Positions 31,945 through 64,000 are shown, counted from the first letter of the stretch. The stretch is DNA of 64,000 bases from a virus (IMGVR_UViG_3300006737_000029:1-64000); one strand, 5' to 3'. The notes: a model not told the origin generated them from the letters alone. Numbers and translations are program-made.

Positions 31945-31953
31945 GTATATTAT
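31945..31953 (+). promoter_or_regulatory. GTATATTA motif
   Basis: ttttGTATATTATag, 26 nt before ATG 31971. Confidence 0.55.
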
Positions 31954-31970: not shown

Positions 31971-34900
31971 ATGTCAAGAAAATTAAAAAATAAGAGTAAG
32001 AAAATATTACCAAAGGCTCAGTCAGGAAGATTTTTAATTGGGTCAAATTCTCCTAGGTTTGTGCCTCCTAAAATAAGACCTAATTTTGTTCGGTCACTTA
32101 GGAATTATTATCCTAACCTTGACATTAGGGGAATAGGTACTCAACCTAATTTGTTTAGTGGAATTAATGAGTTAGGTATGCCTACAAGTAATTTTGCTAA
32201 TCTTACAGATTATGAGAAAACAGCATTAGGAAGATTCAACATAGGAGAATATCAACCAGTTGATTCTAGGTTTAATAATCTTGTACAAAACTACCAGCAT
32301 CTTAATACTGATAAGAATCTAGCTATAGACATGGCAAACATGGCGGTGGATTTTAGTCAAACTAGTCCTGGATCGTATTTTGAAGTATTAACAAAAGGAG
32401 AGCCGTCTTCTTTTATGTCTGAAATATTTAGAGATCCTAATATTAATGTTTTTAACGCAAGGAATCCAATAGTTAATGATGGAACGTATGATTATAATAA
32501 TCCATATGCTGGAAATTTTAGAGATAATTTTACAGGTGAATTTGAAAAGAATTTAAGGTCATATGGTAAGCATGGTTTTTATGCTAATCAGGTTCCATTA
32601 TCAGGAGCAACTGAGATAGCTAATAGGTTTATGCCTGCAAATATGCAACTTAGACCCATTACAAGTTATGGTAAGGGTGATAATTATTTTGCAAACCAAA
32701 TGAGTTTAGCACCTAAAGGAACATATCCCTATAATATAACAACAAGACCAGGATATGACTACTTACAAGTAGGTAGTCCTGTAGCTGATTACATGGTAAC
32801 TGGTTCAACAATGTATAACGTTGACCCAATTAGTAACTTAGGTAAGTATAGAGGAAGAGGTGAAATGGATAATCAGCATAATTTCTTATTAGGTCGTACT
32901 AATAGTCCATCAATAATTTTATCAGGGGATCAAGGATTTGCAGGTATGCAGGGGGGAAATGATAAAAGAAGGTTGTGGAGTGGGATAGAAACGCCAGGGC
33001 GTGGAAAAAACGTACCAAACTTAAATACAAACCTATCTCCTCTTTTAAGAGAGACATTTAATCTTAATACTCCGTTTCAAGGAACGTTTATGAAGTTTCC
33101 TTATATGAATACGTATGAAAGAACAATAGACGGTAACATACCACGGACAGAAAGAATTGGGGCAGATGGAAAAGTAGAAGAAATATCCAGCTGGAACATT
33201 GATGATAGACATAAATCTTTTAATGATTTAACATCTGATAATCGTATAGCATATAGAAAGAATTTTGATTGGCTAAGACCAATGAGTAGAGAAAATCATT
33301 TTTATCCTGGTACTTTTCTTAAACAAGACGGATCTCCGTTTAACGTAGACTTTGACTATACAAGAGGTGTACCAGCGAACCCAAAATTAGGACAAATAGA
33401 TCAGTATATCCCAAGCTATTTTTTAGGATTTGATTGGGGTATGAAACCGAACTATGGTCTTCCTAATAAGTATAAGTATCTTGATGATTTTGATATTAAA
33501 AGTCTACCTAACTTAAGAGATAAAAAAGAAAAAGGCGGAGAGCTTCCAAAGGCGCAATTTGGTAAAGGTTTGTTTGGAAATTTATTTAAAAAACCAAATA
33601 TAGGATTAAAAGGGGGTAAACAATATGATTACGCTAATAAGAGATTTGTACAACCAAAAGCACTTGAAAATACAAATATATATAGAAAAACTGCTTCAGA
33701 AAGAACACATCCAGTTATTGGTGATTATTCTTTTAGCAGTATGCAAGGTGAATATGATTGGTTACAAAATGCTAATCAAATGTCAGACAAGTTTGTTATA
33801 GCCAAGAATCCTATATATAATAATGATGGACAGTTGATTTCTTATGATATGCCTAATTTAACTAATGATGGCTATCTGACATTAAATGATTTTTTTGATA
33901 GATCAGGTGATGAAAATTTTAAAAGCCTTTTTAAAACAGAAAAATCTATAGATGGTCTTTTACAAGACATAAATAAACAAGGATTATTTCATTTAGATAT
34001 GCATTCTAATAATATTATGGTAAAACCAGGTTTTGGTGGTAGTATATTAGATTATAAAATAATTGATCCTGTTGGGTTACCTCAAATAACCCGTGACATG
34101 GACTTCTCAACTTTTGCACCACTAGAATTTAATCAATTAAAATTAAATTTACATCCTACGTTTTATCCAGAAACAACACAATCTACAAGGTTTAATAATG
34201 TAATGGATTTCTATGGTGGTATAGAAAAAGACAGATACGGAACTATACTTCTTCCTAATGAAGCAAAATTTAATTCTAAAGGAGAGTGGAAAAAAGAAGG
34301 TGGACAATTACCAAAAGCTCAGATGGGTAGATTTAAATTTTCTCCTAAAGTTAGAAATAAAATGACTACGGATGGTAATCTGTTACCTGTTAAAAAGTTT
34401 GATAAACTAATAGCTAGAAATTTTACAACTGGTGAACAACAGTATTTACAAAACCTTCTTTTATCTAATCCTAGTTTAGTACAAAATGGAAACATAAATC
34501 TTAATAATCTTGAACTAGCTGCAGATAAAAGTGCAATGAGTTTTAAATTTCAAGATATAAATGATTTTGATACACGTATGGTTAATGGTGTTGAAGGTGT
34601 AAGATCTAGATGGACTGATGTAGGTTCTGTAGATCCAACATTCACTTATTTAACTGGTGATACACCTGATTTTGGACTTTACAGGTATCCAGAAATACTA
34701 CCATCACAGTTTAGCTACTTAAATCAAAGTAATGTGCGTAGTCCTTACATGCAATTTAAAGGTGATCAAATTACTCCAACAAATTTCTCTATAGGAATGA
34801 CTGGATTAAATAAACCATACTTAGATAATCATCATGATGGGCTGCATATACTTGATCCAGGAGCTCATGGATGGATGAGGGGTTTTGTGGATAAAAGATT

Positions 34901-37900
34901 TCCTAACAGATATAATCTAAAAGAACTTCAGACTGATATTAATAAAGATCCTATGTTTGATCTTTTAAAGTCTAAAAATATTTCTCAATTATCTGAACAA
35001 GTAGATAAATCAAAATTTAGAATAGGTAAAAATGAAAAGGAAATAGCAAGAACACAGAATGAATTACAACTTATTCAACAAAGAAAAAATGAAATATATG
35101 GGCGTGATGAATATACTGATGAACTTGCAGAATTAGAACGTTTAGAAGAAGGTTTAACTCAGTCGTTGGAACATCATATGAAGAATTATCCACTTGCTAA
35201 AAGAATCATGGCTAATAGTGATGGTGATATGAGTAATTTAATTCAACTATCAAGAATAGGATTTGATCCTTATGCTAGACTAAATAATGAAGCGTTTGCT
35301 TTCTTGCAGGATAAAGGTTTTAATGAAATTGTAATACCAAATGCTAAAACAATAGCTCAAATACAAGGATGGGATCCAGACTTACCTAATAGTTATAAAG
35401 GTACTTTAAATTATTATAATACATTACAAAACAATTCTCAATTAACAAATACTGGTAATACTTTTGACTTAGATAACTATAGTGGTAATATATTTAATTT
35501 ACAACGTACACAAAAACCGTTTGAATTATTTAAAAAATATGGTGGTCAAACTTCAACATATTCTTTAGATACAAAACATAAAAATTATAAAAAAGGCGCA
35601 GAAATATATAAATATGGTGGTCAAACTTATAGTATGGAAAAAGCACAAAATGGAAAAGAAACTAATACATATGATCAAGAATATGGTATGTTTGAAAATT
35701 GGCTTCAAGAGCAAGAAGCTAGTTGGGATTATATAAAAAATACTCCTTCTTCTGTATTAAAACCTGATGGTAAAACATATTATATGATGTATGAAGATAA
35801 CAAATTCTACCCATATTATTTTAAAAACTCTGATGGTACAGTAGAAACTGAAGCTACAGTTGGTTTTGGAATGAAAGGTGCAGATGTGTATGAAACATAT
35901 AAAGACGGAATGTCCCTAGAAGAGGCAGAAACAGGTAGAAAAAAAGATATTGACAATGCTTTAAGAAAAACTAAAATATTTATTGATGCTAACTACGGAG
36001 AAGGAGAATATGATAAATTAGATGCTAGAGAAAAGTTTATGCTAGCTGATTTTACTTATAATCTTGGAAAATTAAGTAAATATCCAAACTTTGCTGATGC
36101 AATAATGACTAATAATTTTGATAAAGCATTAGCAGAATATATCAGGAAAGATCAAGAAGGTGGAACAGAATTAGGTAGAAATGATGCTTATTTAAATACT
36201 TATTTACAACCTTGGATAAACAGTGAACAAGAAAAAATAGCAGAGGAAGCAGCTAATTTAGAAAGAATGAATAATTTAATGCAAGAACAACTTGTAATTC
36301 CAGCAGATAATACAATGGTAGGTCAAAACTCATTTGGTGGATGGAAAGCAGGGGGTGAAACAATTAAAAATAAAAAAATGAAAACAAAAGACTTAGATTA
36401 TTTTAAAAATGGCGGTAGTTTAAAAAAAGCACAGAATGGATTTTCTGGTGCATCACTTCTTTCTAACCCAAATAATCAGCAAAGCTCTTTAATGAATAAA
36501 ATGCAAAATATACTATATCAAAATCAAGTTGATCAGTATTATGAGCCATATGGAGGAAAAGAGGAGTATGAGAAAATGAGAAGATGGGCACAATATCAAG
36601 ACGCATTAGCTAGTGGTAATGAATCAGTAATAAATGCATACAAATCATTATATCCTGAGTTTGAAAATATGTCATATGGTGATGCCTTTGCGTTATCTAG
36701 ACAATCACAAGAATTTGCAAGTCCAGGAGCGTTTGGTTTAGAAGGTGAAACTAACACAATGTTTAAAATGCCTTACGGTGATGATGGAATGCCTAATTTT
36801 AGATGGAATAATCAAGTATATGGTGTTGAAGAGGGTGATGATAATATTTTTGATTGGAGAACTGGAGACCAAATTGATAATATGTTTGGTGATATAGATC
36901 AACAAATGAATATGGACTTTCTTATAGCTAATCCTGATTTGACTAATGCAAACCCTGAAGATTATTATAACTATATGGTAGAATACTATAAGGATGATAA
37001 AGATAAGTCAAGGCTATTAAGAGACATAAAGAAAAATAATCCAAAAAATTATTTAAATATGTTATCTCCTTCTATGAATTCTGGATTATATAATGCATTA
37101 CGTACTCAACAAGGACTAGATGCTAGTTTAGATCCATCTGGTTGGAATGATCCTGACGGTGACGAGATTGTTGAAGACTCTGATATTAAGAGTTTATATA
37201 ATCCTGAGATTAATTATGTAGATAATATAGGCGGAGGTGCTGGTTATACAAGCATGAGTGGTGACCATGGTTATGCTGCTTGGCAAAATGTTCCTTTATC
37301 TAACGTAGCTGGAGATTATCAGGATATGGGTACAAATCAACATGCTGTTGATTCATATTTAGCTTCTGATCAATTTAACTTAGGATCAGAGGCTGCAAAA
37401 AAATGGTTAGCTAATTATAATAAAGAAAATTTAGCAACCTTTAAAGAAGACTTTGGTAAAGCATGGTTTACTAATTCTGATCCAAACTCTGCATATCCAA
37501 GTCAAACTTTAAATAAAGAACAATATAATAAGTTTTTAGAATATACACCTGGTCAAGAAGGTGAAGGCCGTAATGATCTTTTTGAAAATATATATAACGC
37601 AATGAATCACCAAATTGCTACAAATAATATTGGTAATAACACACTTACTTTTAATAACCCAAATAATAATGAGGAAGATTTGTTAGACTTTGCTAATGGA
37701 GACATGTATGAATATCTTAAAGATAGAAGAATGGGATTGCTTAATGCTAAAGGAGATAGATTTAATGCAGGAAAAGCAAATTTGTGGGGACAAACAGTTC
37801 CTGTAACAAATGAAAGATCAAATCAACCAACAAGTTTTTATGAAGCAAATGTAAGTAAACCGTGGAATAATGTTCTTAACTGGGCTAATGCTCCAACGGG

Positions 37901-38606
37901 TGCTCCACCATTATCAGGTTTAATATTCAACACACTTGATTGGGCTGGAGATATAGTAAGACCTGCCCTAGTTTCAGGGTTACCTGAAGATTGGAAACAA
38001 AATGCTTTTGGTGATGCTCAATATTATGATGCTGGAAAAAGATTGATTGAAAGTCCAAGTTGGAAAAATCTTGGTACAGTTGGTTTAGATATAGCATCTG
38101 TTGTACCTGTTGGTAGAGGTGCAAGTATGATTTATAATGCTGGAAAACAAGGTTTAAGAAATACAAAATTTTTAACTTCAGGTTTAAATAGTAGTAAAAG
38201 TCTTAGAGGTAACTTTAATACATTAAAAGGTAACTATAGTGATTTTAGATATATGAACCCTAAATTAAAAAATATGTATAGCTTTGATAAACAAAATCCT
38301 GGAGCATTACGTACTCATTTAAATCAAAAAGGTCCTTTTACTGTTAATACTCCCGCTGGTCGTCAATATAACTTAACAGGAGATATGTTTAGTCCTAATC
38401 AAACACTTATTGGAAAAAACAATATTAATTATGGTGCAGCGTTTGATAAGTACAAACATTATGGAATTGCACCTGGATATATTGCAAATAGTTTTATGGA
38501 ACCTAATCAGAACATAACATTTGGTCAACCAAGTTTTTTGAATACACAGATACCTTCCAGTACATACAATCAAAAACTACCTTTGAATTATTTCAAAGCA
38601 AAATAA
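31971..38606 (+). CDS. giant modular (polyvalent) protein with kinase-like and lysozyme-like domains, probable virion cargo
   Basis: 2211 aa; repeated KxGG-x-LPKAQxG linkers; HLDMHSNNIM..IIDP; TVGFG...FTYNLG. Confidence 0.7.
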   Translation: MSRKLKNKSKKILPKAQSGRFLIGSNSPRFVPPKIRPNFVRSLRNYYPNLDIRGIGTQPNLFSGINELGMPTSNFANLTDYEKTALGRFNIGEYQPVDSRFNNLVQNYQHLNTDKNLAIDMANMAVDFSQTSPGSYFEVLTKGEPSSFMSEIFRDPNINVFNARNPIVNDGTYDYNNPYAGNFRDNFTGEFEKNLRSYGKHGFYANQVPLSGATEIANRFMPANMQLRPITSYGKGDNYFANQMSLAPKGTYPYNITTRPGYDYLQVGSPVADYMVTGSTMYNVDPISNLGKYRGRGEMDNQHNFLLGRTNSPSIILSGDQGFAGMQGGNDKRRLWSGIETPGRGKNVPNLNTNLSPLLRETFNLNTPFQGTFMKFPYMNTYERTIDGNIPRTERIGADGKVEEISSWNIDDRHKSFNDLTSDNRIAYRKNFDWLRPMSRENHFYPGTFLKQDGSPFNVDFDYTRGVPANPKLGQIDQYIPSYFLGFDWGMKPNYGLPNKYKYLDDFDIKSLPNLRDKKEKGGELPKAQFGKGLFGNLFKKPNIGLKGGKQYDYANKRFVQPKALENTNIYRKTASERTHPVIGDYSFSSMQGEYDWLQNANQMSDKFVIAKNPIYNNDGQLISYDMPNLTNDGYLTLNDFFDRSGDENFKSLFKTEKSIDGLLQDINKQGLFHLDMHSNNIMVKPGFGGSILDYKIIDPVGLPQITRDMDFSTFAPLEFNQLKLNLHPTFYPETTQSTRFNNVMDFYGGIEKDRYGTILLPNEAKFNSKGEWKKEGGQLPKAQMGRFKFSPKVRNKMTTDGNLLPVKKFDKLIARNFTTGEQQYLQNLLLSNPSLVQNGNINLNNLELAADKSAMSFKFQDINDFDTRMVNGVEGVRSRWTDVGSVDPTFTYLTGDTPDFGLYRYPEILPSQFSYLNQSNVRSPYMQFKGDQITPTNFSIGMTGLNKPYLDNHHDGLHILDPGAHGWMRGFVDKRFPNRYNLKELQTDINKDPMFDLLKSKNISQLSEQVDKSKFRIGKNEKEIARTQNELQLIQQRKNEIYGRDEYTDELAELERLEEGLTQSLEHHMKNYPLAKRIMANSDGDMSNLIQLSRIGFDPYARLNNEAFAFLQDKGFNEIVIPNAKTIAQIQGWDPDLPNSYKGTLNYYNTLQNNSQLTNTGNTFDLDNYSGNIFNLQRTQKPFELFKKYGGQTSTYSLDTKHKNYKKGAEIYKYGGQTYSMEKAQNGKETNTYDQEYGMFENWLQEQEASWDYIKNTPSSVLKPDGKTYYMMYEDNKFYPYYFKNSDGTVETEATVGFGMKGADVYETYKDGMSLEEAETGRKKDIDNALRKTKIFIDANYGEGEYDKLDAREKFMLADFTYNLGKLSKYPNFADAIMTNNFDKALAEYIRKDQEGGTELGRNDAYLNTYLQPWINSEQEKIAEEAANLERMNNLMQEQLVIPADNTMVGQNSFGGWKAGGETIKNKKMKTKDLDYFKNGGSLKKAQNGFSGASLLSNPNNQQSSLMNKMQNILYQNQVDQYYEPYGGKEEYEKMRRWAQYQDALASGNESVINAYKSLYPEFENMSYGDAFALSRQSQEFASPGAFGLEGETNTMFKMPYGDDGMPNFRWNNQVYGVEEGDDNIFDWRTGDQIDNMFGDIDQQMNMDFLIANPDLTNANPEDYYNYMVEYYKDDKDKSRLLRDIKKNNPKNYLNMLSPSMNSGLYNALRTQQGLDASLDPSGWNDPDGDEIVEDSDIKSLYNPEINYVDNIGGGAGYTSMSGDHGYAAWQNVPLSNVAGDYQDMGTNQHAVDSYLASDQFNLGSEAAKKWLANYNKENLATFKEDFGKAWFTNSDPNSAYPSQTLNKEQYNKFLEYTPGQEGEGRNDLFENIYNAMNHQIATNNIGNNTLTFNNPNNNEEDLLDFANGDMYEYLKDRRMGLLNAKGDRFNAGKANLWGQTVPVTNERSNQPTSFYEANVSKPWNNVLNWANAPTGAPPLSGLIFNTLDWAGDIVRPALVSGLPEDWKQNAFGDAQYYDAGKRLIESPSWKNLGTVGLDIASVVPVGRGASMIYNAGKQGLRNTKFLTSGLNSSKSLRGNFNTLKGNYSDFRYMNPKLKNMYSFDKQNPGALRTHLNQKGPFTVNTPAGRQYNLTGDMFSPNQTLIGKNNINYGAAFDKYKHYGIAPGYIANSFMEPNQNITFGQPSFLNTQIPSSTYNQKLPLNYFKAK

Positions 38607-40659: not shown

Positions 40660-41000
40660 ATAAAGTTGATAAAAGAGTTAAGGTAACTAAAGATGCTATA
40701 ATAAAGTATCAAATAGTTACATATTGTTTTTTAAATGATATACAAATAAGTAAAGCTGATTTAGAATGTTTAAATGAATTAGCTAAACTCAAAGATGCTG
40801 AATTAAATAAATTCTGTAAAGTAATATCTGAAAAGCAAATCTTTAAAAGCCCTCAATCATGCAGAAATGCAATCCAAAAAGCAAAATCCAAAGGATTGAT
40901 TGAGAAGGTTGATAAAAAAATTCTTTTATCATCTGATATACAACTGCAAGTAGATGGGAGTATTTTATTAGATTATAAAATTCTTAGTGTTGAAGAATAA
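40647..41000 (+). CDS. putative winged-HTH protein
   Basis: SPQSCRNAIQKAKSKGLIEK helix-wing pattern. Confidence 0.5.
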   Translation: MAVVNKVDKRVKVTKDAIIKYQIVTYCFLNDIQISKADLECLNELAKLKDAELNKFCKVISEKQIFKSPQSCRNAIQKAKSKGLIEKVDKKILLSSDIQLQVDGSILLDYKILSVEE

Positions 41001-41361
41001 TATAAAACCAAAAACATATAAAATATTCTATTCTGATATTGCAAAGGAATGTGAGGTACATGAGAATTTGGTAGAAGAGTTTGTAAGATTTTTCTATAGT
41101 GAGATAAGAAAGCATCTAGAAGAACTAGATCACACAAGAATTCTTTTACCAAATCTCGGTACTTTCATTATAAGAAAAAATAGAATTGAGAGATCAATTA
41201 AAAGACATAAAGACATGTTGGGAAACATGGAAAAAACAACGTACACAGGATATGGTAAACATTTACCTGTAAAAGAGAAGTTACTTAAAATGGAAAAAGC
41301 TCTTGTACGTATTGAAGAAGAGTTAGTAAATAAAAAAAATTGGAAAGATGAAAATAAATAA
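40987..41361 (+). CDS. HU/IHF-like DNA-binding protein
   Basis: IAKE......VEEFVRFFY.EI...L......ILLPNLGTF; expected position in crAss-like capsid modules. Confidence 0.65.
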   Translation: MLKNNIKPKTYKIFYSDIAKECEVHENLVEEFVRFFYSEIRKHLEELDHTRILLPNLGTFIIRKNRIERSIKRHKDMLGNMEKTTYTGYGKHLPVKEKLLKMEKALVRIEEELVNKKNWKDENK

Positions 41362-45620: not shown

Positions 45621-48386
45621 ATGAAAGTATTAAGCGCAATGCAATTAAAGAATGGTGCTAAAGCAGAAGGGGCTCATGTTGCTGCATCATTAACTCAACC
45701 ACTACAATTTTTACCTGCTAAAGAAAAGGATGATCAGTGGGCTGCGTGGAATCTTGATTGGTTAGAAAAAAGAGGTCTTGATTATCTTAGAGATAATGCA
45801 AGAAAAGTTTTAAAAAATTATAAGTTAGCAAAAGGTATAATTGATAAAACAGATTACATCATTGAAGAAGATAATGATTATACACAATTAATTGATATTC
45901 TAACTAAAGAAGATGAGACTGCATTAGAACTTAAATTTTATCCTATTATACCAAATGTAATAAATGTTTTAGTTGGGGAATTCTCTAAAAGATATTCTAA
46001 AGTACAATTTAGAGCTGTTGATGATACATCTTACAATGAGATGTTAGAGCAAAAAAGATTACAGATTGAAGAAACATTACTATCTGATGCAAAAAGTAAG
46101 TTAATGTTAAGCATGATAAAACAAGGTGCTGATCCACAATCAGAAGAATTCCAACAAGCTACTGCACCAGAAACATTAAAATCATTACCAGAAATACAAG
46201 ACTTTTTCTCTAAAGACTATAGAAGTATGGTAGAAGAATGGGCACATCATCAGTTAAATGTTGATGAGGAAAGATTTAAAATGCAAGAACTTGAAGAAAG
46301 AGCATTTAGAGATATGCTTATTTGTGATAGAGAGTTTTGGCATTTTAAAATGATGGAAGATGATTATAGTGTTGAGTTATGGAACCCTGCTTTAACATTC
46401 TATCAAAAATCTCCTGACTCAAGATATATATCTGATTCTAACTTTGTTGGTAAATGTGATATGATGAGTGTTGCTGATGTTATAGACAACTTTGGATATT
46501 TAATGACTGCAGATCAACTTAAATCTTTAGAAAGATTATATCCTGCAGCAAATGCAATATATTTAGATAATGGACATCAAAATGATGGTTCATATTATGA
46601 TGCTACAAGATCACATGAATGGAATACACAAAGACCTGGATTAGCTTATAGAAAACTTATGAGTAATCATGACTACAATGCTAGCTCATATGGTGGAGAT
46701 ATTGTTCAAGCTATTCTACAAGAAGGAGATGATATAGGAAAATGGGGTGATTATAATATGATGCGTGTTACAACATGTTATTGGAAAACACAGAGAAAAG
46801 TAGGACACCTTACTAGAATTACAGCAGACGGTGATCTATCACAAGAGATAATTGATGAAGGATATAAGATTACTGATAAACCTGTTTATAATACAAAACT
46901 ATTTAAAGCTAAAACAAAAGAAAATTTAATTCAAGGTGAACACGTTGATTATTTTTGGATTAATGAAGTTTGGGGTGGTATTAAAATTGGACCTAATGCT
47001 CCATCATCATGGAGAAGTGATACAAATGAAGAATCTCCTATATATCTAGGTATAAATCAACAAAAGCCTGGTAGAATAGAATATCAGTTTAAAGGTGATG
47101 ATTCATTATATGGATGTAAACTCCCAGTTGAAGGAAGAGTGTTCTCTGATAGAAACACAAGATCAACTTCTCTAGTAGACCTTATGAAACCATATCAAAT
47201 TGGATACAATATGGTTAACAATCAAATAGCAGACATACTAGTAGATGAATTAGGTACTGTAATTATGTTTGATCAAAATGCATTACCACGGCATTCAATG
47301 GGTGAAGATTGGGGTAAGAATAATTTAGCAAAAGCATATGTAGCAATGAAGGACTTTGGTATGATGCCGTTAGATACTTCTATTACTAATACAGAAAATG
47401 CTACTAACTTTAATCATTACCAAACATTAAACTTAGAACAAACAAATAGATTAATGTCAAGAATTCAATTAGCAAATCACTTTAAGACACAAGCTTTTGA
47501 ATCAATTGGTATTAATCCACAACGTATGGGTGGCGCAATTGCACAACAAACTGCAACAGGTGTAACACAAGCAATGAATCAGTCATATGCACAGACTGAG
47601 ATGTATTTTACACAACACTCTGATCACCTAATGCCACGTGTTCATCAGATGAGAACAGATTTATCACAATATTATCATAGTACAAACCCTTCAATTAGAT
47701 TGAGTTATGTAACTACAGAGGCAGAAAAAGTTAATTTCCAGATAAATGGAACTAAGTTATTATTAAGAGATTTTAATGTATTCTGTACTACTAAGACTAA
47801 TCATAGACAAATATTAGAACAGTTGAAACAAATGGCTCTTACTAATAATACAACAGGAGCTTCAATCTATGATCTTGGTAATGTTATTAAAGCAACAAGT
47901 ATTGCTGAAGTTTCAGATGTACTTAAAGATGCTGAAGCTAAATCTCAACAACAACAGCAACAACAGCAGCAATCTCAACAGCAAATGGCTCAACAACAAC
48001 AAGAAGCTGCTGCTAAAGAAGCTGAAGCTCAAAGACAATTTGAATCTCAAGAGAAGGAAAAAGAGAGACAGAAAGATATTACTGTTGCTGAAATTAGATC
48101 TGCAGGCTATGGAGCTATGCAAGATATTAATGAAAATAAACAAAGTGATTATATAGATGCGCTTGATGACATCCGTAAAAGAGATGAGTATAGAGAGCAA
48201 ATGAATCTCAAAAGAGAACAAATAACAGAAAAAAGATCATATGACAAAGATAAGTTAGCAATTGATAGAGAAAAATTAGCTACTCAAAGATCAATTGCTG
48301 ATAAAAATCTTGCTATTGCAAGAGAAAATAAAAACAAATATGATGTTAAAACTGAGTCAAAATCTAATAAGAACAAGAAGAAATAA
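45621..48386 (+). CDS. portal protein
   Basis: 921 aa after TerL; YPIIPNVINVLVGE, SLVDLMKPYQ..YN, C-terminal Q/E-rich coiled coil as in crAss-like portals. Confidence 0.82.
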   Translation: MKVLSAMQLKNGAKAEGAHVAASLTQPLQFLPAKEKDDQWAAWNLDWLEKRGLDYLRDNARKVLKNYKLAKGIIDKTDYIIEEDNDYTQLIDILTKEDETALELKFYPIIPNVINVLVGEFSKRYSKVQFRAVDDTSYNEMLEQKRLQIEETLLSDAKSKLMLSMIKQGADPQSEEFQQATAPETLKSLPEIQDFFSKDYRSMVEEWAHHQLNVDEERFKMQELEERAFRDMLICDREFWHFKMMEDDYSVELWNPALTFYQKSPDSRYISDSNFVGKCDMMSVADVIDNFGYLMTADQLKSLERLYPAANAIYLDNGHQNDGSYYDATRSHEWNTQRPGLAYRKLMSNHDYNASSYGGDIVQAILQEGDDIGKWGDYNMMRVTTCYWKTQRKVGHLTRITADGDLSQEIIDEGYKITDKPVYNTKLFKAKTKENLIQGEHVDYFWINEVWGGIKIGPNAPSSWRSDTNEESPIYLGINQQKPGRIEYQFKGDDSLYGCKLPVEGRVFSDRNTRSTSLVDLMKPYQIGYNMVNNQIADILVDELGTVIMFDQNALPRHSMGEDWGKNNLAKAYVAMKDFGMMPLDTSITNTENATNFNHYQTLNLEQTNRLMSRIQLANHFKTQAFESIGINPQRMGGAIAQQTATGVTQAMNQSYAQTEMYFTQHSDHLMPRVHQMRTDLSQYYHSTNPSIRLSYVTTEAEKVNFQINGTKLLLRDFNVFCTTKTNHRQILEQLKQMALTNNTTGASIYDLGNVIKATSIAEVSDVLKDAEAKSQQQQQQQQQSQQQMAQQQQEAAAKEAEAQRQFESQEKEKERQKDITVAEIRSAGYGAMQDINENKQSDYIDALDDIRKRDEYREQMNLKREQITEKRSYDKDKLAIDREKLATQRSIADKNLAIARENKNKYDVKTESKSNKNKKK

Positions 48387-48507: not shown

Positions 48508-49842
48508 ATGTCAGATAAAATGCAACAAACAACGACAGTTCAAGAAGTAGATGTTAACCTAGATGAGATCTTTAATGGAGCTCCTGGGGCAGGATCTGTT
48601 GTTACTCCTGAAAAGGAAACTAAAAAACCAAATGTATTCTCAAAACCAGATAATGTAGATTTATCATTTTTAGATGATGGTAGCATTAACAACCCAACAG
48701 AAGAAGAGAGCAAACAAGATGGAGAAGAGGTTAATGCTTCTTCAACTGAAAATACTACAGCTGATTCACCAGAAGTTACAGAAACACCAAAAGCAGCTGA
48801 GGGAGGAGATACAGCTGGAACTGAAACAGTTTCAAAAGATGAAGTAGATGAAATACTTAATGAAGGTTTAGATTTAGCTGAATCAGAAGATGAAAAATCT
48901 ACTGCAAAAGGTAGAAAGAGAATTAATGATATGGCTGATGTCTTCAAAAAAATGATTGAAAATGAAGAAATCATTCCGTTTGATGATGATAAAGACTTAG
49001 ATGATTATTCTGCTAAAGACTGGAAAGAACTTATTCAAGCTAACATGAGTGAAAGAGCTAATAAAGTTAGAAGAGAAACTCCAAAGCAGTTCTTTAACAG
49101 TTTACCACAAGAATTACAAGTAGCTGCAAAATATGTAGCAGATGGTGGTACAGATTTAAAAGGTTTGTTTGGTGCACTAGCACAAACAGAAGAAGTAAGG
49201 TCACTTTCATTATCAGATGAAGATGGACAAGCTCACATTATAAGAGAATATTTAACTGCTACAGGATATGGTAGTCCAGAAGATATTCAAGAAGAAATAG
49301 AAATTTGGAAAGATTTAGGTAAACTTGAAAAGCAAGCATCTAAGTTTAAACCAAAATTAGATAAGATGCAAGAGCAAGTTGTTGCAAGAAAATTACAACA
49401 ACAAGAACAAATGAAAGCTCAACAACAAAAAGCATCAGAAAATTATATGGCTAATGTGTATCATACGCTAAAAGATGGTAAAGTAGGAGACATGAAGGTA
49501 AATAAGAAAACACAATCTCTATTATATAATGGACTTGTTAATCCTTCATACCCATCTATTAATGGTCAAAATACAAACTTATTAGGACACTTGTTAGAAA
49601 AGTATCAATTTGTTGAACCAAACTATAACCTTGTTACTGAGGCACTATGGTTATTAGCTGATCCAAAAGGATACAAATCACAATTGATGACAAAAGGTAC
49701 TAACAAAGCAGTTGAACAAACAGTTAGAAAATTAAAAACTGCACAGTCAACTAAAACTGCAAGTACAGGAGGAGTAGCTGAAACAAAAGCTTCAAGAAAA
49801 AGAACTCTACCAAGAAATCCTAATATATTTAAAAGATTTTAA
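48508..49842 (+). CDS. putative capsid scaffolding/assembly protein
   Basis: Acidic disordered N-terminus and helical body; lies between portal and MCP. Confidence 0.65.
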   Translation: MSDKMQQTTTVQEVDVNLDEIFNGAPGAGSVVTPEKETKKPNVFSKPDNVDLSFLDDGSINNPTEEESKQDGEEVNASSTENTTADSPEVTETPKAAEGGDTAGTETVSKDEVDEILNEGLDLAESEDEKSTAKGRKRINDMADVFKKMIENEEIIPFDDDKDLDDYSAKDWKELIQANMSERANKVRRETPKQFFNSLPQELQVAAKYVADGGTDLKGLFGALAQTEEVRSLSLSDEDGQAHIIREYLTATGYGSPEDIQEEIEIWKDLGKLEKQASKFKPKLDKMQEQVVARKLQQQEQMKAQQQKASENYMANVYHTLKDGKVGDMKVNKKTQSLLYNGLVNPSYPSINGQNTNLLGHLLEKYQFVEPNYNLVTEALWLLADPKGYKSQLMTKGTNKAVEQTVRKLKTAQSTKTASTGGVAETKASRKRTLPRNPNIFKRF

Positions 49843-49887: not shown

Positions 49888-51516
49888 ATGGCAACACCGG
49901 TTTTAAACAACGGTCTCTTTTTAAGAGACACCTCATACTCGGCTAGTTCACATATTGATTCATATCACTTAACACAAATGCTTGGTGACGCAGAGCCAAT
50001 GGACATGGGTCCAGTGGAACTGTGGGCAATGACGCAAAAGGTAGAAATGCCTTTGTATCAGATGGCATCGTTTGGTGGTAAGAACACAATTATGGTTGAC
50101 AATGCAAGAGGAGAGTACAAATGGCAGACTCCAATTTCAGAATCTTTACCAATGTCCCTAGGGAACTTGGCAGAGACTGCAAATGGAGCAGGTGCTGATG
50201 GTACACCTTTCAAGATCAGATTATCTAAAAGAGAATTTGGTCATGGAGACATCATTACCTATGACAAGTACAATGGTCTTGAATTCTACATTACTGCAGA
50301 TGACATCGTTCCTGTAGGAGATGGATGGGTTTATACTTGTACTTTAGTAAATAACGCTTCTGGCACAGGAATTGATGTTAAATATCTTGCTGCTGGAACT
50401 AAGTTCTTCAGAAAAGGTTCTGCAAGAGGTGAATATGGAGAAAGATTCTCTGATATTTCAACTGGAGCAGGGTTCAGAGAATTCTACAACTTTGTTGGAG
50501 GAGCTGAAGCACACGTACACTATTCAGTTTCATCACGTGCTGATCTTATGATCAAAGGTGGAATGAATGCTGATGGTACTGTACCTGTAACTGAGATTTG
50601 GAGAAACTTTGACAAGAACATTGATCCTTCTTTAGATTCTATTGAGTCTATTGCTGGTGCAATGGGTAAAGACTATGTTAAAAAAGCATTTGATAATGGT
50701 TCTCTTTCTAGAACGTTCTTAACGTCTCTTGAAGCAGCACACCTTACTAAAATTGCTAATGACATTGAGTGTTACTTAATGTGGGGTCATGGTGGTAGAG
50801 TTAAGCAAGATGGACCGGATGATATTAGATTATCAGTTGGTTTATGGAAGCAATTAGATAACTCTTTCAAACGTGTATACAACAAGTCAGCATTTAGCTT
50901 AGATATGTTCAAGAATGAACTTTACAACTTCTACGCTGGAAAAGTTGAATTTGATGGTCCAGATCCAAAGAGACAATTAATTGTTCAAACTGGAATTGGA
51001 GGTATGCAGTTAGTAAATGCAGCTATTAGCGCTGAAGTAAATGGCGTTTCTGGTAATAACGGAATGGTAACAAATCTTGATAACATTGGTGCAATCACTG
51101 GAAAGGGAATGGACTTAGGTTACGGATTTGCTTACACAAGTTTTGTTATACCGTTCTTAGCAAACGTTAAGTTTGTATTGAACCCAGCATTTGATAACTT
51201 ACATACTAATGACATTGAGAATCCATTAGTAGATGGTCGTCCATTATCTTCTTACAGCTTCATCATCTTTGATGTAACTGATGAAGGAAATGACAACATT
51301 TACTTATTGAAACTTTCTTGGGATAATGCTCTTAAGTGGTTCTACCAAAATGGTACTATGGACTACATGGGAAGATCACAAGGATTTGCTTCTTCAGGAC
51401 ACTTCAATGGTTATCGTGTAATGATGACTCAAACCATGCCGGCTGTATGGGTTAAGGACCCAACTAAGGTACTTAAGATAGTTATGAGAAACCCAGTTAC
51501 TGGAGGATCATTCTAA
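49888..51516 (+). CDS. major capsid protein
   Basis: 542 aa; position in the module; highly-expressed-type codon usage (ttc/tac/aac); strong terminator after; EYKW, YLMWG..G, G.WKQL, VQTGIGG. Confidence 0.8.
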   Translation: MATPVLNNGLFLRDTSYSASSHIDSYHLTQMLGDAEPMDMGPVELWAMTQKVEMPLYQMASFGGKNTIMVDNARGEYKWQTPISESLPMSLGNLAETANGAGADGTPFKIRLSKREFGHGDIITYDKYNGLEFYITADDIVPVGDGWVYTCTLVNNASGTGIDVKYLAAGTKFFRKGSARGEYGERFSDISTGAGFREFYNFVGGAEAHVHYSVSSRADLMIKGGMNADGTVPVTEIWRNFDKNIDPSLDSIESIAGAMGKDYVKKAFDNGSLSRTFLTSLEAAHLTKIANDIECYLMWGHGGRVKQDGPDDIRLSVGLWKQLDNSFKRVYNKSAFSLDMFKNELYNFYAGKVEFDGPDPKRQLIVQTGIGGMQLVNAAISAEVNGVSGNNGMVTNLDNIGAITGKGMDLGYGFAYTSFVIPFLANVKFVLNPAFDNLHTNDIENPLVDGRPLSSYSFIIFDVTDEGNDNIYLLKLSWDNALKWFYQNGTMDYMGRSQGFASSGHFNGYRVMMTQTMPAVWVKDPTKVLKIVMRNPVTGGSF

Positions 51517-62940: not shown

Positions 62941-64000
62941 ATGGACTCACTATTAGAAAAAATTAAAGCATCATTTAAGTGGAAAAAAACCTCTGATTAT
63001 TGTGCAGAGAAATTAAACATCACAATAGATGACTATGATAAATTGAAAGATTACGTCAAGTCTAAAGAATTATTAGAGAACTCATCAACCTCATATGAGT
63101 ATAATCTAGAAAAAGGTGAAGCAAAAATGGAAACTATAAGTTCTTCTGAACCTAAATCACCTGAAGAAATAATTGATATATTAAATATTGACACAACTCA
63201 GTGGAAACTTTCAAGTTATTGGAATAAACAAATGGGAGATCATTGGAGGGTATCTGCAATGGTTACAAGACTAAAAGATAATGAAGTAGATAATGTTGCT
63301 GAATTATTAAAAGGGTTTAAGCCAAAAAAATATAAAGAAGTAAAAAGAATTAAAACTCCAGGTAAAACAAAAACAGCTGGAGTTTTGTCATTACAAGACA
63401 TACATTTTGGTAAAGAAGGAAATGAAACTATTGATAAATGTTTTGAAGAAACAATTATTGATTTAGTTGAAAGAGCCACAAGTGCTCATCATTTAGAAAA
63501 AATATTCTATGTAGTAGGGGGAGATCTAATCAACATGGACACATGGAATGGGACCACTACTAGTGGAACACCATTAGATAACTGTAAGACTGCTACAGAG
63601 GCTTATATGCAGGCATTTAATGCTATACAATGGAGTATTAACTATATCAAACAGTTTTGTGATGAATTACAAGTAGTTTATATCCCTGGTAATCATGATA
63701 GACTATCTTCATTTCATTTAGCTCATGCACTATCTAAATGTTTTGATAACCCAACTATACATTGGGATGTTGTATATCTTGAGAGAAAAGTTTATGTATA
63801 TGAAGATAACTTCTTTGCTTTTGAACATGGTGATGTTAATACTAAAAATTCTTTATTATTATATTCTATGGAATATCCTAGAGAATGGGGTAAGACATTA
63901 TATAGAACATTATATACAGGACATTATCACCATAAGAAGAAGATTGAGTATATAACTGAACATGAAAATACTGGATTTATGTTAAAGATATTACCTAGTT
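62941..64000 (+). CDS. calcineurin-like metallophosphoesterase (3' truncated)
   Basis: Not in track (runs off the end); in-frame DIHFG, GGDL, PGNHD, FEHGD, GHYHH. Confidence 0.85.
   Translation, partial: MDSLLEKIKASFKWKKTSDYCAEKLNITIDDYDKLKDYVKSKELLENSSTSYEYNLEKGEAKMETISSSEPKSPEEIIDILNIDTTQWKLSSYWNKQMGDHWRVSAMVTRLKDNEVDNVAELLKGFKPKKYKEVKRIKTPGKTKTAGVLSLQDIHFGKEGNETIDKCFEETIIDLVERATSAHHLEKIFYVVGGDLINMDTWNGTTTSGTPLDNCKTATEAYMQAFNAIQWSINYIKQFCDELQVVYIPGNHDRLSSFHLAHALSKCFDNPTIHWDVVYLERKVYVYEDNFFAFEHGDVNTKNSLLLYSMEYPREWGKTLYRTLYTGHYHHKKKIEYITEHENTGFMLKILPS

What the first reader, a model, noticed from the sequence alone, without database searches (positions are those of the whole stretch)
31971..38606. 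2211-aa protein divided by a recurring KxGG-x-LPKAQxG linker: candidate processed virion cargo polyprotein
Seen: a conserved linker recurs at the N-terminus (KILPKAQSG, ~32001), at 33522 (KKEKGGELPKAQFG), 34287 (WKKEGGQLPKAQMG), 35529-35654 (FKKYGGQT, YKKGAE, YKYGGQTYSMEKAQNG) and 36342-36440 (WKAGGE, YFKNGGSLKKAQNG). The ~230-720 aa segments between linkers are unrelated to each other, and the two recognisable enzymes (kinase-like, lysozyme-like) each sit exactly between two linkers. Known precedents: Gly-Gly cleavage sites of adenovirus and African swine fever virus polyprotein proteases, and short capsid-targeting sequences on T4 internal proteins. Inference: the motif is a capsid-loading tag and/or maturation-protease site, so swappable effectors can be chained, packaged and released into the host as separate proteins. 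The gene heads the late block behind a GTATATTA motif.
Basis: partly seen in the sequence, partly recalled or inferred. Interest (0 to 1): 0.85.

Follow-up and report, generated by a model that had tools for sequence, protein, structure and literature searches.

The report
Junction tag in phage cargo protein
A giant protein of an uncultured marine crAss-like phage is a string of unrelated modules, among them a small kinase and a cell-wall-cutting lysozyme, joined and capped by one short conserved peptide that many related phages share and that no paper I searched describes; whether the peptide is cut or is a docking tag is still open.

Summary
ORF 31971-38606 (+) encodes 2211 aa with KAQxG five times (aa 15, 527, 782, 1224, 1486), against at most 2 in 20,000 shuffles, and nowhere else in the 72-kb record.

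The peptide has two parts: aromatic-K/Q-x-GG, then x-LPKAQ-x-G. It lies in low-confidence linkers around a confidently folded GH24 lysozyme and next to a truncated kinase-like core. It is conserved as amino acids, not as DNA.

A degenerate-DNA scan found it in at least 119 viral contigs, 111 of them inside ORFs of 300 aa or more. Relatives gain, lose and reshuffle modules at it, and many proteins begin M-(basic)-LPKAQxG.

The phage is crAss-like. In 28 loci the tagged gene directly follows the muzzle-like gene, where crAss001 encodes cargo protein C1. This is therefore a polyvalent virion cargo protein with an undescribed junction and cap tag.

Cleavage is not shown. I found no protease and no shared site in capsid proteins. 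One orthologue keeps its modules without LPKAQxG. A related GG joint lies inside a crAss001 domain reported as one modelled piece. I favour an uncut recognition tag (0.45) over a processing site (0.25).

This scan had already noted the motif in at least 14 other genomes.

The parts
31945..31952 (+). GTATATTA, 19 bases upstream of the start codon (possible late promoter element, not tested)
   Evidence: exact match. The window count of 11 is not above chance (6.73 expected).
31971..38606 (+). Gene for the 2211-aa modular (polyvalent) protein P0001
   Evidence: Homologues P0002-P0010.
31971..32027 (+). N-terminal cap: MSRKLKNKSKKILPKAQSG (basic stretch plus LPKAQxG, no Gly-Gly)
   Evidence: The same kind of start heads many other proteins of 136 to 2737 aa. 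pLDDT is about 26.
32028..33521 (+). Module 1 (aa 20-517), no known family, not folded with confidence
   Evidence: Homologous modules lie inside other tagged proteins L040, L073 and L099.
33522..33563 (+). Joint 2: KKEKGGELPKAQFG
   Evidence: pLDDT is about 25.
33564..34286 (+). Module 2 (aa 532-772): truncated protein-kinase-like domain, confident core aa 570-712
   Evidence: Invariant K, E, HxDxxxxN and KxxDP. The same module lies between two joints in L110.
34287..34328 (+). Joint 3: WKKEGGQLPKAQMG
   Evidence: G777 G778 L780 K782 A783 Q784 G786 are invariant in the sequences that cover them. pLDDT is about 30, directly before a confident fold that starts near aa 790.
34329..35525 (+). Module 3 (aa 787-1185): small confident N-terminal fold, long helices, no known family
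35526..35654 (+). Joint region 4: FKKYGGQT ... YKKGAE ... YKYGGQTYSMEKAQNG
   Evidence: pLDDT is 30-38 (model residues 1-42).
35655..36290 (+). Module 4 (aa 1229-1440): GH24 T4-type lysozyme fold
   Evidence: 43 of 54 aligned homologues match PF00959. Profile against T4 lysozyme E 6.3e-10. pLDDT is mostly 82-94. Foldseek finds T4 lysozyme at E 4e-3, TM 0.59. VIA Z 10.4, rmsd 2.9, 138 aligned.
36291..36443 (+). Joint region 5: ...FGGWKAGGE...YFKNGGSLKKAQNG
   Evidence: pLDDT is 36-56 (model residues 256-319).
36444..38603 (+). Module 5 (aa 1492-2211): two confident, mostly helical parts (about aa 1505-1700 and 1785-1935) and a weakly folded tail; no known family
45621..48386 (+). Portal protein (context: shows that the phage is crAss-like)
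   Evidence: phrog_6547, 1.6e-95; nearest cultured relative is Leptolyngbya phage Lbo-JY46 at 31.6%, gut crAss-like phages at about 22%.
49888..51516 (+). Major capsid protein (context)
   Evidence: Pfam Crass_capsid, 2.6e-31.

Best explanation
P0001 is a polyvalent cargo protein of an uncultured, probably marine, crAss-like phage. It is one chain of five unrelated modules, at least two of them enzymes: a truncated protein kinase and a GH24 muramidase. It is most likely packed in the virion and ejected into the host with the DNA.

The modules are capped and joined by a two-part peptide that lies in flexible linkers. A C-side cap of the upstream module (aromatic-K/Q-x-Gly-Gly) is followed, after 1 to 6 residues, by an N-side cap of the downstream module (LPKAQ-x-Gly, preceded by basic residues). 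At the true N-terminus only the second half is present.

Shown here:
- The motif is real, is selected as a peptide and is clade-wide.
- It lies at module borders.
- It marks the places where relatives gain, lose and exchange modules.

Inferred: the peptide is a recognition tag read by a conserved partner of the virion or its assembly or ejection machinery. Such a partner would load, position or thread each module, much as short segments of crAss001 cargo protein C1 bind the portal, tail rings and muzzle. On this reading the chain stays uncut.
For: Phage type and place:
- Capsid protein matches Pfam Crass_capsid at 2.6e-31, with portal and terminase beside it. The portal is nearest to crAss-like phages.
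- The last ORF of the record (66267-72125) is weakly like the crAss001 muzzle protein gp44 (E 4e-5).
- In 28 loci a tagged ORF directly follows such a muzzle-like gene. In crAss001 that is the position of gp45.
- These tagged ORFs include L040, L073 and L099, which hold a homologue of module 1, and L104, which holds a homologue of module 2.
- Some tagged ORFs are weakly homologous to gp45 itself (E 1e-7 to 1e-5).

Module content fits virion-borne entry and effector proteins:
- P0001 has a GH24 lysozyme and a kinase-like core.
- Among 26 non-redundant tagged proteins Pfam finds LysM 7, SLT 6, YkuD 3, SET 2, Peptidase_M91 2, and Amidase_2 and NlpC/P60 1 each.
- Iyer et al. 2017 (PMC5512222, passages read) describe polyvalent proteins of Bacteroidetes (pro)phages with exactly such truncated kinases and lysozymes.

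The tag is under selection as a peptide:
- Its columns are the conserved ones inside variable linkers.
- The copies use different codons; 16 to 20 of 30 bases are identical.

The tag lies in linkers:
- pLDDT is 25-38 at joints 2-4 and 36-56 at joint 5.
- The lysozyme between joints 4 and 5 has pLDDT mostly 82-94.

The tag is clade-wide:
- At least 119 viral contigs hold it, 111 of 119 inside ORFs of 300 aa or more.
- 70 of 146 instances have an aromatic plus K/R/Q residue just before GG. In prokaryote genomes the figures are 31 of 120 and 6 of 118.

Module exchange at the tag:
- P0002 has an extra module of about 100 aa between two joints.
- P0007 starts at joint 2.
- P0008-P0010 lack the kinase module exactly between joints.
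- The kinase module of L110 lies between two joints.
- 15% of 1189 internal alignment ends lie within 10 aa of a joint, against 3% for random positions.

Against cutting, and therefore for an uncut tag:
- No KAQxG lies in the portal, scaffold-like or capsid proteins.
- No peptidase family was found in the 16 other late ORFs scanned.
- The motif is long (about 13 residues) and has two parts.
- crAss001 gp45 has related GG joints. One of them (aa 426-435) lies within residues 425-552, which the paper describes as one modelled portal-bound domain.
- crAss001 virion gels show bands of 150, 270 and over 300 kDa, the sizes of its uncut giant cargo proteins (Methods text).
Against: - Presence in the virion is not shown for P0001 or for any tagged protein.
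- The P0001 gene is not at the canonical place after the muzzle gene. It sits upstream of the PhoH-terminase-portal block, a synteny shared by about 20 loci.
- No binding partner is known.
- In five genomes that are 99-100% complete the strict PKAQxG form occurs only 2 to 5 times, almost all in one stretch of 1 to 7 kb. The tag therefore cannot be the general loading signal of all cargo.
- An N-terminal tag after a short basic pre-sequence, and strong purifying selection on internal copies, are just what a propeptide or cleavage site would also show.
- The crAss001 arguments are indirect: that phage lacks LPKAQxG, and I saw no coordinates and no gel figure.
- The record is only 62% complete, so a protease could lie in the missing part.
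- Most internal alignment ends (78%) are more than 30 aa from a scored joint, and the median distance equals the random one (169 against 172 aa).
- Module 1 was not folded with confidence, so the linker status of the N-terminal tag and of the upstream side of joint 2 is not established.
Confidence: 0.45

Rival explanations
1. Processing site. The joints are cut by a phage or host protease, during head maturation or after ejection. The modules then act as separate proteins, and the N-terminal copy is a removed propeptide or targeting sequence.
For: - The N-terminal copy follows only 3 to 15 mostly basic residues in many proteins. This resembles cleaved targeting peptides of T4 internal proteins (recalled).
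- A Gly-Gly precedes the tag.
- The same modules occur fused or as separate genes that start with the tag: P0036 is a stand-alone kinase-like protein, P0007 starts at joint 2, and Lbo-JY46 XAI97384 starts MKIRIIGLPKAQIG. Covalent linkage is therefore not needed.
- A few neighbouring genes look like a joint split in two, for example L023 and L022.
- Internal copies are strongly conserved.
- Polyvalent proteins are sometimes processed, for example P1 DdrB (PMC5512222, passage).
Against: - No protease was recognised in the 72-kb record's late block.
- Among 26 tagged proteins only 2 carry a peptidase-type module (Peptidase_M91).
- The motif is absent from the capsid, portal and scaffold-like proteins.
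- The GG and LPKAQxG halves are separable, with a variable spacer. N-terminal copies lack GG, so GG cannot be the universal scissile site.
- L009 keeps its modules but lost LPKAQxG.
- The related crAss001 GG joint lies inside one modelled domain, and that phage's giant cargo proteins run at full size.
- Phage N4 virion RNA polymerase is packaged unprocessed (PMC5512222, passage).
Confidence: 0.25
2. Fusion scar with a passive linker role. LPKAQxG works only as an N-terminal cap of free-standing module genes, for example for translation start, stability or loading. Internal copies are leftovers of gene fusions and serve merely as flexible spacers.
For: - Fused and split forms of the same modules exist.
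- Internal joints look like a C-terminal cap plus an N-terminal cap.
- Joints lie in low-confidence linkers.
- One orthologue has lost LPKAQxG at its joints without losing modules.
Against: - Internal copies are invariant or nearly so between orthologues that are only 43-62% identical overall, while the rest of each linker varies.
- The copies differ in codons, so the peptide itself is kept.
- The motif persists in proteins that share no alignable module with P0001.
- Leftovers without function would decay.
Confidence: 0.15
3. Host-directed short linear motif. After ejection each tag binds a conserved host protein or structure, so that it places or activates the effector modules inside the cell.
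For: - The motif lies on effector-type modules (kinase, SET, peptidoglycan hydrolases).
- The giant proteins evolve much faster than the portal: the portal is 74-90% identical where the giant protein is 36-55% identical or shares a single module. This is typical of conflict proteins, yet the tag stays constant.
Against: - No host is known and no host partner can be named.
- Real-looking copies in prokaryote genomes are limited to about five low-GC contigs that look like phage DNA.
- The peptidoglycan-cutting modules act outside the cytoplasm and the kinase or SET modules inside it, so one common host target is unlikely.
Confidence: 0.1

Closest known systems
Polyvalent proteins of phages and conjugative elements (Iyer, Burroughs, Anand, de Souza, Aravind 2017, PMC5512222; passages read)
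   Same: - A giant phage protein with several unrelated effector domains in one chain, thought to travel with the DNA.
- The paper names truncated protein kinases typical of Bacteroidetes (pro)phages, with stand-alone versions, and frequent lysozyme domains. P0001 has both.
- Recombinational shuffling of modules is proposed there too.
   Different: - The word 'linker' does not occur in that text (0 hits), and I saw no conserved junction peptide described in the passages.
- Its kinase alignment is in a supplementary file that I could not see, so membership of the same kinase clade is not checked.
- No MPTase-type peptidase was found in P0001.
Cargo protein C1 (gp45) of Bacteroides phage crAss001 (Bayfield et al. 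2023, PMC10172136; passages read)
   Same: - A crAss-like virion cargo protein encoded right after the muzzle gene.
- Short segments of one chain bind the portal, tail rings and muzzle.
- gp45 has aromatic-x-GG joints at about aa 263, 332, 426-435 and 562, and a basic N-terminus.
- Some tagged proteins are weakly homologous to gp45 residues 357-441.
   Different: - crAss001 has no PKAQxG anywhere.
- P0001 itself shows no BLAST similarity to gp45.
- P0001 is 2.6 times longer and carries enzymes.
- Its gene lies elsewhere in the genome.
Capsid targeting sequence of phage T4 internal proteins (recalled, no call)
   Same: A short N-terminal peptide shared by several packaged, injected proteins.
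   Different: - The T4 peptide is removed by the prohead protease, which also cuts the capsid proteins.
- Here no protease is known, capsid proteins lack the motif, and the motif also lies inside chains.
Gly-Gly-X polyprotein processing by adenovirus and African swine fever virus cysteine proteases
   Same: A Gly-Gly at the borders of virion protein modules.
   Different: - No such protease was found.
- The best-kept part is LPKAQxG, not GG.
- N-terminal copies have no GG.
Virion-borne peptidoglycan hydrolases such as T4 gp5 (PDB matches) and T7 gp16 (recalled)
   Same: A lysozyme-type domain carried in the particle to open the cell wall at entry.
   Different: Here it is one cassette among five in a chain with tagged joints.

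Membership tests
Polyvalent proteins (Iyer et al. 2017) | Two or more unrelated effector-type domains in one polypeptide of a phage or plasmid | tested here: met
   Kinase-like core and GH24 lysozyme in one 2211-aa chain. The segments are unrelated to each other.
Polyvalent proteins (Iyer et al. 2017) | Delivered into the recipient cell together with the DNA | not testable with these tools
   Only context is available: a late-type operon, crAss-like phage, and relatives at the cargo position.
Polyvalent proteins (Iyer et al. 2017) | Kinase of the distinctive clade that lacks the C-terminal subdomain | tested here: inconclusive
   The confident core is only about 143 aa (aa 570-712). The best fold match is the minimal NleH2 kinase domain, but it is weak (E 0.13, TM 0.40).
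Protein kinase-like superfamily | ATP-binding Lys, helix-C Glu, catalytic HxDxxxxN, Mg-binding Asp (DFG equivalent) | tested here: met
   K53 nearly invariant; E74, H154, D156, N161, K176 and D179 invariant in 12 sequences; the profile hits the catalytic loop to DFG region of kinases, best E 1.1e-5. P0001 alone gives only phrog_3297 'kinase' at E 0.0032 and no Pfam hit.
GH24 / Pfam Phage_lysozyme (PF00959) | Sequence membership | tested here: inconclusive
   P0001's own segment matches no Pfam family. 43 of 54 aligned homologues match PF00959. The profile hits T4 lysozyme at E 6.3e-10.
GH24 / Pfam Phage_lysozyme (PF00959) | T4-lysozyme fold | tested here: met
   pLDDT mostly 82-94. Foldseek finds T4 lysozyme at E 4.1e-3, TM 0.59. 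VIA Z 10.4, rmsd 2.9, 138 aligned to 9kbs_A; Z 10.3 to 4zpu_A.
GH24 / Pfam Phage_lysozyme (PF00959) | Catalytic Glu (T4 E11 equivalent) | tested here: inconclusive
   The profile alignment to T4 lysozyme starts at residue 18. E1275, D1276, E1292 and T1296 are invariant in the family but were not mapped onto the catalytic positions.
Crassvirales-like phage | Crass-type capsid, portal and terminase; muzzle protein | tested here: met
   Crass_capsid 2.6e-31. Portal phrog_6547 and terminase phrog_6681. The muzzle-like ORF has only a weak match to gp44 (E 4e-5). Formal taxonomy was not tested.
crAss001 cargo protein C1 (gp45) family | Sequence homology to gp45 and a gene directly after the muzzle gene | tested here: not met
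   P0001 gives no BLAST hit to gp45, and its gene lies before the PhoH-terminase block. Other tagged proteins meet both criteria.
Maturation-protease substrates (T4 CTS type; adenain or pS273R GG-X type) | A cognate protease encoded by the virus, and the same site in capsid or scaffold proteins | tested here: inconclusive
   No peptidase family was found in the 16 other late ORFs scanned, and no motif lies outside P0001. However, the record is 62% complete and many ORFs have no family.
Maturation-protease substrates (T4 CTS type; adenain or pS273R GG-X type) | Cleavage at the site in virions | not testable with these tools
   No proteomic data exist for any tagged phage. 'Lbo-JY46' occurs in no searched paper.

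The most novel reading that the evidence does not exclude
The two-part peptide is a processing-and-loading code of a large uncultured clade of crAss-like phages. On this reading LPKAQxG loads each module, and the joint is then cut by a protease that is still unrecognised. Any effector cassette that carries the caps can thus be plugged into a cargo gene, packed and released as a separate protein in the host. That would be a plug-and-play effector delivery grammar with no described counterpart in phages.
Probability: 0.2. Interest if true: 0.85.

Novelty: new variant of a known kind. Interest (0 to 1): 0.6.

Why it matters
Crass-like phages are among the most abundant viruses known, and how they choose, load and eject their large protein cargo is an open question. 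A short, conserved tag at every module border and at many N-termini gives a concrete handle on it. The tag can be mutated, fused to a reporter, used as bait for its reader, and used to find cargo genes in metagenomes.

The tagged proteins are also a rich, fast-changing store of entry enzymes and candidate host-takeover enzymes: kinase, SET methyltransferase and many peptidoglycan hydrolases. If the tag proves to be a cutting or loading code, it would explain how such effectors are exchanged so freely.

Tried and rejected
- **Family scans of P0001.** Whole-protein Pfam and PHROG scans gave 0 families. Scans of the five segments gave only sub-threshold hits apart from the weak kinase PHROG.
- **GenBank phages.** blastn and tblastn of the gene or protein gave no match. 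tblastn of the commonest N-terminal module of tagged proteins also gave no match.
- **Search for split forms.** The 'shorter' length setting returned only 5 fragments, most from short contigs.
- **Scan of prokaryote genomes with the degenerate pattern.** About five low-GC contigs looked real, so nothing could be learned about the host.
- **Cultured relatives.** Cellulophaga phages phi17:2 and phi14:2 and crAss001 have no PKAQxG. Lbo-JY46 has one, at an N-terminus.
- **Motif profile against PDB sequences.** Only chance-level rows, best E 0.43.
- **ESM Atlas with the commonest N-terminal module.** No usable hit.
- **Single-linkage clustering.** Clustering of tagged proteins and of inter-joint segments lumped most into one component and was not informative.
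- **Neighbouring genes that split a joint.** Only 5 of 377 adjacent pairs passed my loose filter, and two of them look accidental. I use this only as anecdote.
- **Recombination-linker idea** (conserved DNA at joints): rejected, because the copies share only 16-20 of 30 bases.
- **Ribosome-skipping or arrest peptide:** considered and dropped, because the motif also sits directly after the start codon.
- **Complex prediction.** The portal (alignment A8) with a 34-aa joint peptide (alignment A7) gave no verdict: score 0.00, mark 0.32, controls not run. This is evidence neither for nor against binding. I tested no other partner (scaffold-like P0164, capsid protein, ring proteins).
- **AF2 of aa 1-1185.** The model was poor (mean pLDDT 40.9), so modules 1 and 3 remain without a fold assignment. 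Modules 3 and 5 were not searched as single domains.
- **Literature.** 'LPKAQ' anywhere in the text gave 9 unrelated papers. 'crAss-like' + 'cargo proteins' + 'proteolytic' gave 0. 'Lbo-JY46' gave 0.
- **Material I could not see.** The crAss001 mass-spectrometry table and coverage figure, the crAss001 gel figure and the kinase alignment file of Iyer et al. were therefore not seen and may bear on the question of cutting and on the kinase clade.

Full report
**The observation.** ORF 31971-38606 on the + strand is open and encodes 2211 aa.
- Shuffling the protein 20,000 times never gave more than 2 copies.
- The motif occurs in no other frame of 40 aa or more in the 72,125-base record.
- The five segments show no similarity to each other at E <= 10.

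**The phage.** The window is part of an IMG/VR virus record that is estimated to be 62% complete.
- The + strand block after the giant gene encodes a PhoH-like ATPase, an exonuclease, the large terminase, the portal, an acidic scaffold-like protein and a capsid protein that matches Pfam Crass_capsid at 2.6e-31. A 1813-aa fibre protein with a SprB repeat follows.
- The portal is nearest to Leptolyngbya phage Lbo-JY46 (31.6% identity), then Cellulophaga phages phi17:2 and phi4:1 (26%) and the gut crAss-like phages (about 22%).
- The last ORF of the record, cut by the record's end (66267-72125), is weakly like the crAss001 muzzle protein gp44 (E 4e-5).
- The phage is therefore an uncultured crAss-like podovirus. 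One fragment of the protein family comes from a TARA ocean sample.

**The modules.**
- Module 4 (aa 1229-1440) is a T4-type lysozyme.
  - Its own sequence passes no Pfam threshold, but 43 of 54 aligned homologues match PF00959.
  - The profile hits T4 lysozyme and T4 gp5 (best E 6.3e-10).
  - AF2 folds it with pLDDT mostly 82-94.
  - The model matches T4 lysozyme (Foldseek E 4.1e-3, TM 0.59) and endolysins (VIA Z 10.4, rmsd 2.9, 138 aligned).
  - I could not map the catalytic Glu.
- Module 2 (aa 532-772) has the protein-kinase hallmarks.
  - The Lys is nearly invariant and the Glu, HxDxxxxN and KxxDP motifs are invariant.
  - A profile hits the catalytic-loop region of kinases (best E 1.1e-5).
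  - The confident core is only about 143 aa, and the fold matches are weak. The first is the minimal NleH2 kinase domain (E 0.13, TM 0.40).
- Modules 1, 3 and 5 have no family.
  - Module 1 was not folded with confidence.
  - Parts of modules 3 and 5 were.

**Where the motif sits.**
- In the model of aa 1186-2211, joint region 4 (aa 1186-1227) has pLDDT 30-38 and joint region 5 (aa 1441-1504) has 36-56, on either side of the confident lysozyme.
- Joint 3 (pLDDT about 30) lies directly before a confident fold that starts near aa 790.
- For the N-terminal copy and the upstream side of joint 2 the model says little, because all of module 1 is poor.
- In the alignment of 10 family members (43-88% identical to P0001), the motif residues are the invariant or nearly invariant columns inside otherwise variable linkers.
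- The three GGxLxKAQxG copies share only 16-20 of 30 bases and use different synonymous codons. The peptide is what is kept, not a DNA recombination site.

**Module exchange at the motif.**
- P0002 has an extra module of about 100 aa bounded by two joints.
- P0007 begins MAKKLKIPKAQFG and continues with the kinase-like module, so module 1 is missing exactly from cap to joint.
- P0008-P0010 lack the kinase-like module exactly between joints and have other ends.
- Single modules of P0001 recur in otherwise different tagged proteins.
  - Module 1 is found in L040, L073 and L099.
  - The kinase module is found in L110, between joints at aa 713 and 994, and in L104.
  - The lysozyme is found in L054, L081 and L100.
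- Over 102 non-redundant tagged ORFs, 15% of 1189 internal alignment ends lie within 10 aa of a scored joint, against 3% of random positions.
  - Even so, 78% are more than 30 aa away and the medians are alike.
  - The joints are therefore preferred borders but not the only ones.

- In 111 of the 119 the motif lies in an ORF of 300 aa or more.
- 113 of the 119 have GC below 0.42.
- 70 of 146 instances have an aromatic and a K/R/Q residue in the three positions before GG.
- The same pattern in prokaryote genomes gave mostly chance hits: 31 of 120 in long frames, 6 of 118 with that upstream signature, and about five real-looking low-GC contigs.
- A profile built from the instances shows that the two halves are separable.
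  - The spacer between GG and LP varies.
  - Single residues can change: LPQAQ, LPIAQ, LQKAQ, LKKAQ.
  - Some copies lack GG or the final G.
- Many proteins of 136 to 2737 aa start with M, a few basic residues and (LP)KAQxG. One is XAI97384 of the cultured phage Lbo-JY46, which lies in that phage's cluster of giant genes.
- In five genomes that are 99-100% complete (117-124 kb), PKAQxG occurs 2 to 5 times, nearly all within one stretch of 1 to 7 kb on one strand. The reversed-pattern control gave 0.

**Why cargo.**
- In 28 loci the tagged ORF directly follows a homologue of the muzzle-like ORF. In crAss001, gp45 follows gp44 in the same way.
- Several tagged ORFs are weakly homologous to gp45 residues 357-441.
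- crAss001 gp45 is a mass-spectrometry-confirmed virion cargo protein. Separate short segments of it bind the portal, the tail rings and probably the muzzle (PMC10172136, passages).
- The domain census of 26 tagged proteins is dominated by cell-wall modules (LysM, SLT, YkuD, amidase, NlpC/P60, lysozyme), plus SET and Peptidase_M91 (SET also).
- This is the picture drawn for polyvalent proteins, including truncated kinases in Bacteroidetes phages and lysozymes (PMC5512222, passages).
- P0001's own gene is at another place, before PhoH-terminase-portal. About 20 loci share that synteny.
- The canonical cargo position of this genome lies beyond the end of the record.
- Virion presence of P0001 is thus an inference.

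**Cut or not.**
- In favour of cutting:
  - The N-terminal position behind a short pre-sequence.
  - The Gly-Gly.
  - Modules that exist both fused and as separate tagged genes.
  - A few gene pairs that look like a split joint.
- Against cutting:
  - No KAQxG lies in the portal, scaffold-like or capsid proteins.
  - No peptidase family was found in the 16 other late ORFs scanned. A peptidase-type module occurs in only 2 of 26 tagged proteins.
  - The motif is long and has two parts.
  - L009 keeps the module order at 27-36% identity but retains only the aromatic-K-x-GG halves.
  - In crAss001, the related joint AFGGWLNTQGG (aa 426-435) falls inside residues 425-552, which the paper describes as one compact portal-bound domain.
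  - That phage's virion gel has bands of 150, 270 and over 300 kDa (Methods of PMC6235969), the sizes of its uncut cargo proteins.
- The crAss001 points are indirect. That phage lacks LPKAQxG, and I saw neither coordinates nor figures.
- I therefore rate an uncut recognition tag at 0.45, a processing site at 0.25, a fusion scar with a passive role at 0.15 and a host-directed motif at 0.10.

**Known or new.** The kind of protein is known (polyvalent proteins; crassvirus cargo proteins). The conserved two-part junction and cap peptide is not described in the texts I could search.
- 'LPKAQ' gave 9 unrelated papers.
- 'crAss-like' + 'cargo proteins' + 'proteolytic' gave 0.
- The polyvalent-protein paper does not contain the word 'linker'.
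- It matches no solved structure by sequence.

Earlier follow-ups of this same scan reported the motif in at least 14 other genomes and reached a similar open verdict. Those are unchecked notes, and I used them only as leads to the polyvalent-protein paper and to gp45.

- Counts against a prokaryote-genome control.
- The codon evidence.
- The test on alignment ends.
- The N-terminal cap on a cultured phage protein.
- The confinement of the tag to one short cluster in complete genomes.
- The contrast between a slowly evolving portal (74-90% identity) and fast-evolving tagged proteins (36-55% identity, or one shared module) in the same contigs.

Noticed in passing
IMG/VR loci L107, L012, L019, L030, L039, L075, L090, L025 (C-termini of large ORFs): At least eight large ORFs in tagged gene clusters end with a second conserved peptide, roughly [DE][DE]-I-x-x-F-x-x-x-G-G-x-[IV]-E-[YF]-I at the very C-terminus. 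Others end in GGWLDKY(Q). These may be further caps of the same grammar.
   Followed up: no
window 45621-48386 against 31971-38606, compared in L009, L010, L004/L049, L005-L008: The portal is 74-90% identical between phages whose giant protein is only 36-55% identical or shares a single module. The giant protein evolves far faster than the virion core.
   Followed up: partly
record positions 66267-72125 (beyond the window's end at 64000): An ORF of more than 1950 aa, cut by the end of the record, is weakly similar to the crAss001 muzzle protein gp44 (E 4e-5 and 0.002). Homologues precede tagged ORFs in 28 loci. Further tagged cargo genes of this phage may lie just beyond the record.
   Followed up: partly
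L032:375-2432 (+) and two of 26 tagged proteins in alignment A6: SET-domain (PF00856) and Peptidase_M91 (NleD-like) modules occur inside tagged proteins. They are candidate host-modifying effectors.
   Followed up: no
L104:10275-10484 (+) and 28 other loci: An N-terminal module of about 70 aa (…NPYNVIPSGDITMKGVDFPV…) is shared by tagged proteins of 29 loci. It has no Pfam, GenBank-phage or ESM Atlas match.
   Followed up: partly
L010:6602-12040 (+): A 1813-aa tagged protein holds two copies of a module of about 95 aa that ends in a hydrophobic stretch (…YGILPF[ST]AGPLV…). Each copy follows a joint. It may be a membrane-inserting element.
   Followed up: no
window 48508-49842 (+): The 444-aa protein between the portal and the capsid protein has a very acidic, probably disordered N-terminal third and a basic C-terminal tail. 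This fits a scaffolding protein. It has no family hit.
   Followed up: no
window 31945, 48459, 53441, 54833, 61069, 5246 (+): GTATATTA stands shortly before several late-type genes, but its total count (11) is within chance (6.73 expected; 6 of 100 shuffles reach 11).
   Followed up: partly
window 40987-41361 (+): A small HU/IHF-like DNA-binding protein (PF18289 at 5.1e-7, PF00216 at 0.0017) lies in the block between the giant gene and the terminase. crAss001 also has an HU/IHF-like gp42.
   Followed up: no
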